Part shown: piece after piece, positions 30,585-63,619 of the stretch | How positions within the stretch are numbered: the stretch's first letter is position 1 | Layout of the letters: each line of letters begins with the position of its first letter | Source: Octopus vulgaris | Lineage: Eukaryota | DNA: 64,000 nt | Direction: 5' to 3' | Assembly: GCA_951406725.2 (NCBI GenBank) | Contig: OX597815.1 | Coordinates: 50,468,001-50,532,000 of the forward strand | Notes under the pieces: model-generated | The model's input: only the letters and a program-made list of their open reading frames with translations | Told to the model about the DNA's origin: nothing | Databases searched by the model: none | Program-made: the position numbers and the translations under genes

Positions 30585-30959
30585 ATAAATACAAAATGGG
30601 ACAAGAACGCAAAACATCTGGACAGTTAGGTGATACAAAAATGAGACAACAAAACAACCAGATAGACGATACAAAGAAACCAAGGACGGGTCATTCGAAG
30701 TTTTCTTTCCTCAGTCAAGTACCAGATTATCTTCACAATTTCGGCTGATTATACTCAAGATTGCTCCAATCTGGCCAGCCCCAAGGAAAAACTAAGCTTC
30801 GAGCATTAGATTCCTTGGAAGAAAGCAGCAAATGTATACAAAAATAAGGACAGTAAAAAACGGACAATGTTACACAAATACAATAAAAATAATAACAGGT
30901 TATAACAACAGGTGTCTTTCGAGTAAGGACAAATTAAATTATGCTGGCGTGTGTGGAAA

Positions 30960-30962
<3 letters not shown>
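30585..30962. repeat. Microsatellite-flanked ~375 bp unclassified interspersed element
   Basis: Complex A-rich block bounded by (TG)n and (TA)n; no second copy in the window. Confidence 0.4.
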
Positions 30963-31002
<40 letters not shown>

Positions 31003-31109
31003 ACACACACACACACACACACATATATAGGGAATAACGTACTTTCCAATGCTTGCAATGAGCCGACTGTGATGGTGTTGATGATGATGATATATGTATG
31101 TGCCAGCAT

Positions 31110-31197
31110 AAAAGAGGTTGTCACAGTTCTAGGACAGCACTCTTTACCTTATGAGATGACATATGGTGTACCACAGGGATCTGTTCCTGGCCCCCTC
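31110..31197 (+). mobile_element. CR1/L2-group LINE RT fragment (5' part, interrupted by RTE)
   Basis: EVVTVLGQHSLPYEMTYGVPQGSVPGPL, an RT GVPQGS motif. Confidence 0.85.
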
Positions 31198-32768
31198 GCT
31201 CTAATCGCTGAGTCACTATCAGAACTGGAGGAGAAGTTCCAGGTGTGGAAGGAGGGTTTAGAATCGAGGGGCCTTAGAGTCAACCTAGCTAAAACCAAAG
31301 TACTAATAAGTAGAAAGTTAGAAAATCCACAAATATCCTCAGGAAGCTGGCCCTGCTCGATCTGTAGAAAAGGTGTAGGTAGAAACTCTATAAGATGTAC
31401 CCAGTGTAAGCTATGGACACATAAGAGGTGCAGCAATGTCAAAGGTAGGCTAACTGGGAAGATAGTTTTTGTATGTGGCAGATGCTCTGGAGCATTGACC
31501 TCCGAAAATCTGCAGAAAACAACTTCCGTCACTTTCCGGGGGAAAAACTAGAAGTAGTTGATAGCTTCCGCTATCTAGGTGACCAAGTCAGTAGTGGGGG
31601 CGGGTGCGCTGAAAGTGTAACTGCTAGAATAAGAATAGCCTGGGCAAAGTTTAGGGAGCTCTTACCTCTGCTGGTGACTAAAGGCCTCTCGCTCAGAGTA
31701 AAAGGCAGACTGTATGATGCATGTGTACGAACAGCTATGCTACATGGCAGTGAAACATGGGCCGTGACTGCTGAGGACATGCGTAAGCTTGTGAGGAATG
31801 AAGCCAGTATGCTCCGATGGATGTGTAATGTCAGTGTACTTACTCGACAGAGCGTTAGTACCTTGAGAGAAATGTTGTACCTAAGAAGCATCAGTTGTTG
31901 TGTGCAAGAGAGACGATTGTGCTGGTATGGTCATGTGGTGAGAATGGATGAAGATAGGTGTGTGAGAAAGTGCCAATCCCTAGCAGATGAGGGAACCCGT
32001 GGAAGAGGTAGACCCAGGAAAACCTGGGACGAAGTGGTGAAGCACGACCTTCGGACGTTAGGTCTCACCATGGAAATAACTAGAGACCGAGACCTATGGA
32101 AGTATGCTGTGCGTGAGAAGACCCGGCAAGACTGGTGAAACCATAATCCGTGGCCCCTACCTGGGACGTAGTCAGTCCACCTGTGCATACCTTCCTTCTT
32201 TTGACACTTGTGAAGACCTGTTGAGGCAAGTGAGAATCGAATCGAATCAAATCAAATCAAATCGAACCAAATCAAAATAGATGAACATCAATGGAATTTG
32301 TATCCTTGTGGTACCAGTGCCGGTGGCACATAAGAAAACCATCCGAACGTGATCGTAGCCAGTACCGCAACGACTGGCCTCCGTGCTGAGGGCATGTAAC
32401 AAACACCATCCGAGCATGGCCGTCCGCCAGCTCCGTCTGGCACCTGTGTCGGTGACACATAAGAAAACACCATCCGAGCGTGGCCGTCAGCCAGCCTCGT
32501 CTGGCACCTGTGTCGGTGGCACATAAAAAACACCATCCGAGCGTGGCCGTCTGCCAGCCTCGTCTGGCACCTGTGTCGGTGGCACATAAAATCACCCACT
32601 ACACTCTCGGAGTGGTTGGCGTTAGGAAGGGCATCCAGCTGTAGAAACACTGCCAGATCTGACTGGCCTGGTGCAGCCTTCGGGCTTGCCAGACCCCAGT
32701 TGAACCGTCCAACCCATGCTAGCATGGAAAGCGGACGTTAAACGATGATGATGATGATGATGATGATG
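31195..32768 (+). mobile_element. 5'-truncated RTE-clade LINE (RT C-terminal half with PHD-like finger, 3' UTR tandem repeats, (GAT)n tail)
   Basis: ALIAES...GLRVNLAKTKVL, FRYLG, LHGSETW, RRLCWYGHVVRM, RGRGRPRKTW; frameshift near 31540; stop at 32138. Confidence 0.95.
32320..32595 (+). repeat. ~62 bp tandem repeat in RTE 3' UTR (about 4 units)
   Basis: Unit caccatccgagcgtggccgtctgccagcctcgtctggcacctgtgtcggtggcacataaaa. Confidence 0.9.
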
Positions 32769-33783
32769 TTAATGACATAGATGCCAACTTAAAGAATGCC
32801 ACAGTGCTGAAATATGCAGATGACACCAAGCTGTACCTCGAAATAAAGAGGTCAGATCCTGTACACTATAGATCTCTATTGCAAGCAGACCTGGACACAA
32901 TGCAGCAGTGGATCATGGACTGGCAACTCAAGCTGGCTGTGGACAAATGTACCACCATGCATTTTGGGAGGAGAAACCCAGCGTCCACCTACTCCCTCCA
33001 CAACACTAATCTCAAAAGGTCTTCATGTGAACATGACCTGGGTGTTATTGTCGACAGTGATTTGCGTTGGACAAAACACATCACTAAAATTGTCAAGAAG
33101 GCTGAGGGTGTCTTGGCATCGCTCACCAAATCCTTTGTGAGCTGCTCTCCAACTATCTATCTGCGGCTTTATATAGCTATGGTAAGACCTCACCTGGAAT
33201 TTGCATCACCAGTCTGGAACCCCTATCTTGCCCAGGATATCAATTGTCTGGAAGCTGTTCAGCGACATGCAACCAAAAGAATACCCTCCATCAGGCATTT
33301 GCCATATCCTGAACGCCTTACTTCCCTGGGCATGGACACATTGAAACTCCGACGTTTGGCAGCTAACTTAGCAGACACCCATAAAATTATCAACCATCTT
33401 ACAAACAATAACTCTGAGCACCTTTTCAAACTCCACCCATCTAACACCCGAGGACATATTTACAAAGTCAGAAAACAGCACAGCTTCCATGACTTTCGGA
33501 AACATTTTTTCACGCTGAAAGTTGCTGAAGCATGGAACAAACTGCCGGCATCAGTTGTTAGTTGTCGAAGCACTGCATTCTTCAAAACTGCCATGCTTCC
33601 TGAGATTCGCCAACACTACACCTGATTTTCTCCCCTCCATACACACACAAGCATGTATCTGACTCATACACTGTTCACTTTCCAGACATTTATACATTAC
33701 TGCATATACTCTATACGCACTTTCTGACAAGTTGTGGTGCACCTGAGGACTGTATACAATAATTTCATTATTATTATTATTAT
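32769..33783 (+). mobile_element. CR1/L2-group LINE RT C-terminal part, 3' UTR and (ATT)n tail
   Basis: VNDIDANLKNATVLKYADDTKLY...DLGVIVDSDL...VRPHLEFASPVWNPY...TRGH...WNKLP; ORF 32804-33625. Confidence 0.93.
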
Positions 33784-44612: not shown

Positions 44613-44718
44613 ATTACAACAATTGTTTCGACACATCCTGCATTACTCCATTGTGGGTGGGAAACTATACAATTAATTTCAGTGCATCCCACGATACAGA
44701 AGCATCTCATCAGGTGAT
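44613..44718 (-). ncRNA. Putative type I hammerhead ribozyme, intact catalytic core
   Basis: Minus strand: atcac-CTGATGA-gatgcttctgtat...atgcaggatgtgtc-GAAAC-aatt-GTT-gtaat; helix II about 13 bp, palindromic helix III ACAATTGT. Confidence 0.75.
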
Positions 44719-48482: not shown

Positions 48483-48523
<41 letters not shown>

Positions 48524-48645
48524 GTGTATTCACATTCGGCTCTGTAAATTTTGGAAGTGTTGGTTGGATATCTGTTACATGATGTCACTCGACTGTGTGC
48601 TTATTCAGCCCTAGCACTTTCAAATTTTATAAAAATTGGAAATAC

Positions 48646-48704
48646 TATACTGAAGAGAGAAGTAAGTAAAATTTAAATTACTTTAATCTCGAAACATGTA
48701 TATA
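48646..48704 (+). ncRNA. Putative minimal type I hammerhead ribozyme, intact catalytic core
   Basis: tata-CTGAAGA-GAGA-agtaa...ttact..-TCTC-GAAAC-at-GTA-tata; palindromic helix III ACATGT. Confidence 0.7.
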
Positions 48705-49883
48705 ATTAATCCTGGTCGTGTTGATTCATTGTTTTTCTCTTTGCCTTTGTAAAAACGTATGTTTTACCATCATGGAGATTCTTATAGTAGTAGAAAAGGA
48801 ATTTTTAACTCCTATTTCTAATTTTGGTATGTGGTGAAGCAGTTGGCTGAACCCTAATTATAATTATGTGTATATATATATATATAGATATATATGCACA
48901 CACATACACACACATACACACATAAGTATGTATATATGTATGTGTGTGTGTGCATAGATAGATAGATAGATAGATAGACAGACACACATACATACAGAGA
49001 GAGAGAGAGAGGGGGGGGTATACACACATATTGACAAACATATATTCACAAATGTGTACTTGTCTATTTAATTATATGTGTGTAAGTATTGGAAAGTCTG
49101 TATTTGTATATTCTATTAATTTATCCAGTTTTAAACTCTTGAAAGCTCCAATTAACTTTTGTTCAATACTATCACCAAATTTATACATTGCTTACATTCT
49201 GCCACCAGCTTTCACCTTATTGATTCAAGGCAGAAGTATGCCTAAACAATGACTATCCCACAAAAAAAATATTTTGTTATGCAACTTGCCAAGTTTCACA
49301 ACAAAATAAAACCTACAAAATTCAATATATCTATTTACTTGATGTTTTGGAATATTCACTCTTTCCTGCCAGAAATGGTAGCATGTGTAACACATCTAAT
49401 CCAAGCTGAATGCCATTAAGTTTAATTAAATTGTATGTTCCATTATAGTTTTACAGTTAAACTGAACTGTTTCTATTACATTTATTTAAGAGTAGCAGTT
49501 ACTTGCTATATATGTCAGGGCAATGACAGGCTGATAGTTTTCCAGTGAAAACTAGAAGATAATTTACCAGCAGCACATGGTCTAGAGCCAATGAGAGGGA
49601 ACCTACCATTTTCTGAAGACTTAAGTGAGGCTTTCTGTAAGAAGTGCATTATATGAAGGAAAATCATTTTCTTGATTTAATTTTATTTAAAGCCTATCTT
49701 TTCAACACGGTGTGAAATTTAGAAACATCTATTTATATTTTTCTATCTACACTAGTAAATTTCTTGTTTAAAGCAATTACAATAAAAGATAATTTAGAAA
49801 TCTGAAGAAATTTTTTGTCAAAAAATAGGAAGTTACTCTAAGCAGGACTTATTCCAAAATTCTATGATTATTACAATTTGTTA

Positions 49884-62098: not shown

Positions 62099-63619
62099 GA
62101 GGAAAACTAGTTAAGAGTAACAACATCACACTAGATAAAACCAATGAAATAAAAGAATTAGACCAAAGTCAAACTTACAAATACTTAGGAATCCATGAAC
62201 TAGATAAGACACAACACACACAAATGAAAGAGAAAATAAAAAAAAGAATATTATAGACGAGTTAGATCAATACTAAACACAGAGCTCAATGCTAAAAACA
62301 AGATAATAGGTATCAACACTTTAGCTGTCCCAGTTATAAGTTACAGCTACAATATCCTTAACTGGACACGAAATGAACTGACCAAAATAGATAGGAAAAC
62401 AAGAAAAATAATGACAGGATCTAGGATGCATCACCCAAAATCTGACATAGAAAGACTATATATACAACGTATAGAAGGTGGTAGAGGCCTTATACAGCTG
62501 GAAAACTACTATAAAATAACCACCATAGGACTGCAAAAATATCTACTTCAGAAGGAAGGAAAACTGATCCAGATAGCGGCAAAACACAAGCAAAACAAAA
62601 AACTGTTCTCAGTATTTAAGGAAGCTGACAAATACAAACAAGAAATCATACCACCTAATAAACATGAAGAAGAAGAAGAAGATGAAGAAACAACAAAAGC
62701 TATAAAACAAATGAAATCCAAACTAAAAATAGAACAGCAACGAACCATGATAAAACGATGGCAAGAAAAGCCCCTTCATGGTAAATACTGGACTAAACTA
62801 AACGCAAAAGAAATAGACAAAGAAAAATCCCAGCAATGGTTGAGAAGCTCAGGACTCAAAGCAGAAACAGAGGGATTTTTAATTGCAGCACAAGACCAAA
62901 GCCTCCCCACCAGAAATTACCAAAAACATGTAATGAAAAGAAATATTACAAGTAACTGCAGAATATGTGGAGATGGACAAGAAACAATAAATCATATTAT
63001 CTCTAGCTGCCCAGTCCTGGCTAAGAAGGAATATATTTACAGGCATGACAGAGTTGGAACCTACATACATTGGAAGCTATGCCAACATTATGGAATAACA
63101 ACAGAAAAAAGATGGTATAGGCACACACCAGAAAAGGTCACAGAAAACGAGAAAGCAACCATACTCTGGGATATGCCGATACACACAGATAGAGAAATTA
63201 AGGCCAACAGACCAGATATAGTTGTCAGAGATCATGAAGAAAAAAATGCTTTCTAATTGATGTATCAATACCGGCTGATGACAACGTGTCTCTAAAAGAA
63301 ATGGAGAAACTCTCAAAATACAAAGACCTGGAAATAGAGGTAACCAGAATGTGGAATCTGAAAACATAAACAATTCCTATCATAGTAGGTGCATTAGGCA
63401 TGATAAAAAAATATTCAGACAAATACATAACAAAAACACCAGGACTTACAAACACATATAACATACAGAAAATTGCACTACTAGGCACTGCACACATCCT
63501 ACGCAGAACACTTTCCATACAATAACCATCAGAGCATCACAACAAATCACAGCACATACCCAAGGCACACAGAGCTGCGCTCGGTAGTGAAGTGAAAGCA
63601 CGCTATAAAAATAAAACTA

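What the first reader, a model, noticed from the sequence alone, without database searches (positions are those of the whole stretch)
48646..48704. Second intact-core minimal hammerhead
Plus strand CUGAAGA (48650-48656), helix II GAGA/UCUC extended by AGUAA/UUACU, GAAA (48691-48694), palindromic ACAUGU and a GUA site (cleavage after 48700). Helix I is only uaua/uaua and weak. It lies in a ~300 bp unit starting at a (TA)n tract (48523), unrelated in sequence to 44613-44718.
Basis: partly seen in the sequence, partly recalled or inferred. Interest (0 to 1): 0.72.

Follow-up and report, generated by a model that had tools for sequence, protein, structure and literature searches.

The report
Hammerhead ribozyme in Penelope-type repeat
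A complete hammerhead (self-cutting RNA) motif sits in one shortened, mutated copy of a many-copy, non-coding 535-base repeat that was likely spread by Penelope-type jumping genes; intact copies are predicted to cut only in pairs, this lone copy probably does not cut, and the kind is already known from many animals.

Summary
The motif is real and not chance. All core bases are where stated. It lies in a 350-bp, 5'-truncated copy (48521-48870) of a dispersed 535-bp non-coding unit. A family-type pattern hits the genome 80 times against 0 for the control; a 20-mer from the unit's 3' end, shared with sister subfamilies, hits 1,094 times. Helices I and II co-vary across subfamilies (11 of 15 pairs). 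The family majority has a 6-bp helix I plus 3 more pairs, and the palindrome ACGCGU. This copy has a C.A mismatch in helix I and ACAUGU, which fits two CpG decays. Copies have scattered 5' ends, two fixed 3' ends at (TA)n, partial tandems and 5' inversions, the anatomy of Penelope-like elements. No linked reading frame was found. Folding predicts an inactive monomer and a favourable dimer for intact copies, but not for this one. Cleavage and expression are untested. The scan noted a similar element in another genome (e1-9560060). Verdict: new member of a known kind, low interest.

The parts
48521..48870 (+). 5'-truncated copy of a 535-bp non-coding repeat unit (unit positions about 196-545)
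   Evidence: 89-93% identity to 39 other scored copies
48484..48522 (.). (CA)n(TA)n tract on the left of the insertion
   Evidence: sequence
48871..48896 (.). (TA)n tract at the 3' end of the insertion
   Evidence: sequence; (TA)n within 25 bp of the 3' end in 62 of 84 arms
48638..48649 (+). Helix I, 5' strand: GGA (outer 3 bp), AAU internal loop, ACUAUA (C48645 is mispaired in this copy)
48650..48656 (+). Core box CUGAAGA
48657..48690 (+). Helix II: GAGA/UCUC, 3x3 internal loop, AAGUAA/UUACUU, 8-nt loop
48691..48694 (+). Core box GAAA
48694..48699 (+). Palindromic helix III ACAUGU (family majority ACGCGU); predicted dimer interface
48698..48700 (+). GUA triplet; predicted cut after 48700
   Evidence: position from hammerhead rules, not assayed
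48701..48712 (+). Helix I, 3' strand: UAUAAU, UAA loop, UCC
48822..48841 (+). 3' motif shared by the subfamilies (one CpG change in this copy)
   Evidence: 1,094 exact genome matches vs 0 control

Best explanation
The window holds a complete type I hammerhead motif inside a 5'-truncated, mutated copy of a dispersed 535-bp non-coding repeat that is likely a non-autonomous derivative of Penelope-like elements, whose intact RNA is predicted to self-cleave only as a pair and whose copy here is probably inactive. Shown: motif, multi-copy family, covariation, scattered 5' ends, two fixed 3' ends at (TA)n, partial tandems, 5' inversions, no reading frame. Inferred: a source copy is transcribed as more than one unit; two hammerheads pair through their ACGCGU palindromes and cut; a Penelope-type RT/GIY-YIG protein supplied in trans primes cDNA at a nicked (TA)n site near unit position 540 or 665 and copies an RNA whose cut site is intact (uncut or re-joined, possibly circular); inserted copies then decay neutrally.
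For: Family: 40 of 40 scored candidates match (39 besides the window copy, 89-93%), out of 1,392 first-look candidates. Structure: on 42 hand-picked of 103 motif copies, 90.9% of cells are paired and 11 of 15 pairs change on both sides; slid controls pair 23-45%. At 48645/48705, 84 arms read U-A 39, C-G 25, U.G 12, C.A 3, other 5. Non-CpG core positions differ in 8 of 330 cells against 383 of 7,156 elsewhere (Fisher p 0.016). Anatomy (84 arms in 80 loci): 3' ends at 530-569 in 50, at 630-679 in 28, elsewhere in 6; 5' ends spread from -189 to 319; 13 arms run back into the previous unit; an inverted piece was flagged at the 5' side in 25 and at the 3' side in 0; longest open frame 65 codons. 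This matches the structure described for Penelope-like elements (PMC8557442 passages). Dimer: the active dimer of copy L024 scores -31.5 against a best dimer fold of -31.8 kcal/mol; this copy scores -20.8 against -32.6. Helpers exist: many 781-aa frames with a C-terminal GIY-YIG match.
Against: No cleavage or expression data. No Rfam hammerhead match. No autonomous element sharing this sequence was found among the loci tested, so the helper is unidentified. No sampled copy holds two complete hammerheads in direct tandem, which the dimer model needs in the source RNA. The first pair of helix II is unpaired in 21 of 42 sequences. The covariation set was chosen by a pattern that fixes the core, helix III and the first 3' bases of helix I, and the sequences are related, so the shuffle control overstates support. 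A few of the 25 inversion flags are hits to an internal palindrome.
Confidence: 0.72

Rival explanations
1. The copies are detached pseudo-LTRs or 3' fragments of an autonomous Penelope-like element that was not sampled; the hammerhead is an ordinary pLTR hammerhead.
For: Most PLE hammerheads occur as single motifs in truncated elements (PMC4209133). PLE frames lie within 1-2 kb of some copies. Only about 250 loci were read, out of more than 1,000 arms.
Against: Unit ends read straight into the start of the next unit, not into a frame (13 arms extend upstream, 28 downstream). The nearby PLE frames that I read have their own 3' ends, are separated from the unit by (TA)n or unrelated DNA, or face the other way. 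No tblastn hit upstream and in sense among 90 loci picked by the 3' motif (one hit, in L250, on the other side of the check: a 49-codon fragment about 240 bp beyond the 3' motif).
Confidence: 0.15
2. The fold is kept for another job, such as an RNA-processing or splice signal or an RT binding site, and the family no longer cleaves.
For: PLE hammerheads cut poorly in vitro and the authors leave other functions open (PMC4209133). A splice-donor-like motif lies in helix II in 50 of 63 family-A-like and 30 of 40 other copies. At most 1 of 95 arms begins at the cut site.
Against: Core bases are the most conserved. The palindrome is kept across subfamilies. No copy among 251 loci lacks a segment starting at the donor. 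Copies that read through the site are also expected from uncut or circular templates.
Confidence: 0.07
3. This particular copy is an active ribozyme used by a host transcript.
For: All core bases are intact (true of 23 of 33 unbiased copies), and the two helix III changes keep the palindrome.
Against: Both changes are at CpG sites, which differ at 14.6% against 5.4% elsewhere. The C.A mismatch breaks helix I. The active monomer fold lies about 11 kcal/mol above the best fold. There is no second copy of the unit in the 64 kb.
Confidence: 0.05
4. Chance match in AT-rich DNA.
For: No Rfam match; the helices are short and AU-rich.
Against: Multi-copy family with covariation.
Confidence: 0.01

Closest known systems
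Hammerheads of Penelope-like element pseudo-LTRs, variant with a small palindromic helix III (Cervera and de la Pena 2014, PMC4209133)
   Same: Type I fold, intact core, short palindromic helix III, predicted dimer action, extended helix II, many variable families per genome, mostly single motifs in truncated elements, some in close opposite-strand pairs.
   Different: Helix I is 6 bp with an internal loop and outer stem, closer to the canonical type. This subfamily lacks the extra base between A9 and G10.1 that some sister copies have. No RT/endonuclease frame is attached.
Metazoan non-LTR retrozymes (Cervera and de la Pena 2020, PMC7229834; bioRxiv 10.64898/2026.07.22.740005)
   Same: Non-coding, low GC (29%), one type I hammerhead per unit, head-to-tail junctions, found in a genome with PLEs.
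   Different: The unit is 535 bp, against about 170-400 nt reported. No array with two whole hammerheads was seen; copies are dispersed partial tandems with inversions. Circular RNA is not shown.
Insertion structure of EN+ PLEs (Neptune, Hydra, Naiad; Craig et al. 2021, PMC8557442)
   Same: 5' truncation, partial tandems, inverted 5' copy, a tail at only one end, bias for (TA)n.
   Different: The one-sided extension is about 125 bp here, against 30-40 bp described. The element is non-coding, so no clade can be assigned.

Membership tests
Type I hammerhead ribozyme | Core CUGANGA, GAAA and NUH in order | tested here: met
   intact in 23 of 33 similarity-selected copies
Type I hammerhead ribozyme | Helices I and II supported by covariation | tested here: met
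   (with the selection and relatedness caveats)
Type I hammerhead ribozyme | Match to an Rfam hammerhead model | tested here: not met
   0 of 8 matches at E<=10. That Rfam models miss short-helix-III forms with a long helix II is my recollection, not tested.
Type I hammerhead ribozyme | Loop 1-loop 2 tertiary contact | not tested
   Internal loops exist in both helices; contact bases were not analysed.
Type I hammerhead ribozyme | Site-specific self-cleavage | not testable with these tools
   Folding predictions only.
PLE min-HHR in the strict sense | No helix III or loop 3 | tested here: not met
   A 6-nt palindrome is present; this is the small-palindrome variant of the same paper.
Penelope-like element (autonomous) | RT plus GIY-YIG frame between pseudo-LTRs | tested here: not met
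   Longest frame 65 codons; no linked frame in sampled loci.
PLE-mobilised non-autonomous element | 5' truncation with fixed 3' ends, partial tandems, 5' inversions, microsatellite targets | tested here: met
PLE-mobilised non-autonomous element | Sequence shared with the pseudo-LTR of an autonomous PLE | tested here: inconclusive
   No match to the 781-aa family or the other PLE loci tried (26 loci); most PLE families of the genome were not sampled.
Non-LTR retrozyme | Tandem repeat with two or more complete hammerheads | tested here: inconclusive
   None among the fetched loci; two copies cross the cut site twice but lack the second core. No genome-wide count was obtained.
Non-LTR retrozyme | Expressed as unit-length linear and circular RNA | not testable with these tools
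   Only assembled contigs were available.

The most novel reading that the evidence does not exclude
The family is a 535-nt circular-RNA retroelement, and its genomic copies record the mechanism. Reverse transcription starts at two fixed sites about 125 nt apart, one for each arm of an inverted insertion (11 of 24 loci with an inversion row show one arm of each class). It reads through the hammerhead cut site, twice in two copies, and almost never stops there (at most 1 of 95 arms). That would make it a compact test system for the proposal that Penelope partial tandems come from ribozyme-made circles.
Probability: 0.3. Interest if true: 0.5.

Novelty: new member of a known kind. Interest (0 to 1): 0.25.

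Why it matters
The local copy is an ordinary decayed transposon insert. The family adds one more example of hammerhead-bearing non-coding elements riding on Penelope-like retrotransposons. Its modest value is as a small, many-copy substrate for an open question: whether PLE hammerheads cut in vivo and whether circular RNA is the template (proposed in PMC4209133; function called unclear in PMC8557442).

Tried and rejected
Rfam, whole window and local: microsatellite-driven miRNA hits only among those listed, no hammerhead (85 lower rows were not shown). Host exon at 48609-48661 (AG...GTAAGT): rejected, since it lies inside the repeat and no copy lacks a segment starting at the donor. Search for an autonomous partner: GIY-YIG scan, flank ORFs, tblastn with 8 PLE-type proteins, DNA comparison with 26 PLE loci: none shares the unit. 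Pile-up of 5' ends at the cut site: not seen; of 95 arms about 42 cross the site, 1 starts at it (ambiguous, inside a TA tract) and 52 start 21 nt or more downstream (some long alignments are inflated by TA tracts, and ends of diverged subfamilies are underestimated). Expression: no RNA holder listed. Contigs of runs guessed to be RNA cover parts of the unit but not this copy's unique left flank, and contigs cannot show ends, strand or level: no verdict. A genome-wide count of two hammerheads one unit apart was not obtained, so a tandem source copy stays open. L121 (a sister-subfamily copy) was dropped from the 85-row family alignment before the counts.

Full report
Observation. The motif is far beyond chance: one hit in the window against a mean of 0.005 in 200 simulated windows. 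Rfam does not recognise it (0 of 8 local matches).

Family. A DNA search of the own genome (2.8 Gb, 227 contigs) gave 1,392 first-look candidates; all 40 scored ones match the 336-bp query over all or nearly all of its length, 39 of them other loci at 89-93%. The pattern CTGANGA-N(26-42)-GAAACGCGTATATA has 80 hits against 0 for the control, a looser one 150 against 7. A 20-mer near the unit's 3' end has 1,094 exact hits against 0; it counts arms of several subfamilies, not copies of this one. The unit is 535 bp, 29% GC, with no frame over 65 codons. The window copy spans 48521-48870 between (TA)n tracts and is the only one in the window. The host is probably an octopus; this is recalled from genome size and repeats and was not tested.

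The family ribozyme versus this copy. In 33 copies chosen by DNA similarity rather than by motif (mean divergence from the majority 5.8%), the core is intact in 23. Helix III reads ACGCGU in 15 and ACAUGU only in the window copy; a strict pattern with ACATGT hits only this locus. Both changes are CpG transitions, and CpG sites differ at 14.6% against 5.4% elsewhere, so the kept palindrome is most simply luck. The window has C48645 opposite A48705, whereas 76 of 84 arms pair at that position (U-A 39, C-G 25, U.G 12). Across sister subfamilies helix II changes (GAGA/UCUC, GGA/UCC, GGAG/CUCC, GGG/CCC), and so does the outer helix I (G-C to U-A). On 42 of 103 motif copies, picked by hand for diversity and leaving out the most distant families, 11 of 15 pairs show two-sided changes and 90.9% of cells pair, against 23-45% for slid controls. 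The pattern used fixes the core and helix III, the sequences are related, and the first helix II pair is open in 21 of 42.

Predicted activity. As monomers, all four copies folded prefer a rod in which core bases pair with helix III; the hammerhead fold of the window copy is about 11 kcal/mol higher. As dimers joined through the palindrome, three intact copies come within 0.3-3.5 kcal/mol of their best dimer fold at 37 C and beat two monomers. The window copy is 11.8 kcal/mol off and loses to two monomers. This fits the dimer model of PMC4209133 (parts 1-2 of 4 read), where a single minimal motif did not cut and dimers cut weakly. These are energy-model predictions without tertiary contacts.

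How it moves. In 84 arms (80 loci) the 3' ends cluster at unit positions 530-569 (50) or 630-679 (28), 62 with (TA)n next to them. The 5' ends scatter from -189 to 319, and inverted pieces were flagged only on the 5' side (25 against 0, a few being palindrome artefacts). In 11 of the 24 loci listed with an inversion, one arm ends near 540 and the other near 665. This is the structure described for Penelope-like elements: truncation, partial tandem, inverted 5' copy, one-sided tail, (TA)n bias (PMC8557442 passages), with a longer tail here. It also marks the hammerhead strand as the likely template strand. Among 95 arms chosen by the 3' motif alone, about 42 run through the cut site and at most 1 begins there; two copies cross it twice. 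So the integrated cDNAs came from RNA with an intact site, either uncut or re-joined. Sequence cannot tell these apart.

Helper. The genome is rich in GIY-YIG frames, including a young 781-aa family with direct terminal repeats. None of the PLE loci examined shares sequence with the unit. Mobilisation in trans is inferred and the helper is unknown.

Comparison with what is known. It works like a PLE pseudo-LTR hammerhead, or like a non-LTR retrozyme (PMC7229834, passages; bioRxiv 10.64898/2026.07.22.740005, part 1 of 5 and passages, which argues that such retrozymes are non-autonomous PLE derivatives). It fails the autonomous-PLE test, and the retrozyme tests (two hammerheads in tandem, circular RNA) are open. 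Searches for hammerhead + Penelope + octopus and cephalopod + hammerhead listed no paper on this family. A repeat annotation of Octopus vulgaris lists recently active Penelope-like families and has no occurrence of 'ribozyme' or 'hammerhead' in its main text (PMC13282606 passages). PMC11662667 was seen in the listing only. No supplements or repeat libraries were seen, and they may already hold this family. The scan's earlier notes e1-9560060 and e1-7368186 describe the same kind in other genomes (not checked); a sequence look-up found no look-alike.

Verdict. Real motif, known kind, probably dead local copy. Novelty: new member of a known kind. Interest 0.25. The boldest open reading, a circular-RNA template recorded in the copies, has probability about 0.3 and would deserve 0.5.

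Noticed in passing
L097 2745-5090 and 5717-6172; L098; L099 (546-844, 6096-6394): A young PLE family with many 781-aa frames carries in its terminal repeat a hammerhead-like fold with first box UUGAUAA, i.e. the U3-A8 core variant mentioned in PMC4209133, and the palindrome ACAUGU. A candidate helper, but it shares no sequence with the unit.
   Followed up: partly
window 44613-44718 (-): A second hammerhead candidate (CUGAUGA ... GAAACAAUUGUUGUA) with a long helix II; no similarity to this unit or to any of the fetched loci.
   Followed up: partly
window 48662-48667: A splice-donor-like GTAAGT inside helix II, with similar motifs in 50 of 63 family-A-like and 30 of 40 other copies on the ribozyme strand (1 and 2 on the other strand); no spliced genomic copy was found. 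It may be a remnant of the PLE pseudo-LTR intron, or just pairing sequence shared by descent.
   Followed up: partly
L031, L040, L114, L115, L129, L136, L020, L131: 9 of 84 arms have their 5' end at unit positions 314-319, at the 5' edge of helix I, several at a fold-back junction; a possible RT stall or snap-back site. Selection for an intact motif may contribute.
   Followed up: partly
L143, L144, L145, L155, L048, L057, L085: Other, unrelated hammerhead families in the same genome, some downstream of PLE frames; one has ACAUGU natively.
   Followed up: no
window 32723-33622 (+) and 62240-63253 (+): Fragments of LINE-type reverse transcriptase frames (Pfam RVT_1 and zf-RVT).
   Followed up: no
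window 30796-31548 (+): Open frame with a PHD-finger match (E 5e-5) just upstream of another open frame at 31449-32135; probably part of a retroelement.
   Followed up: no
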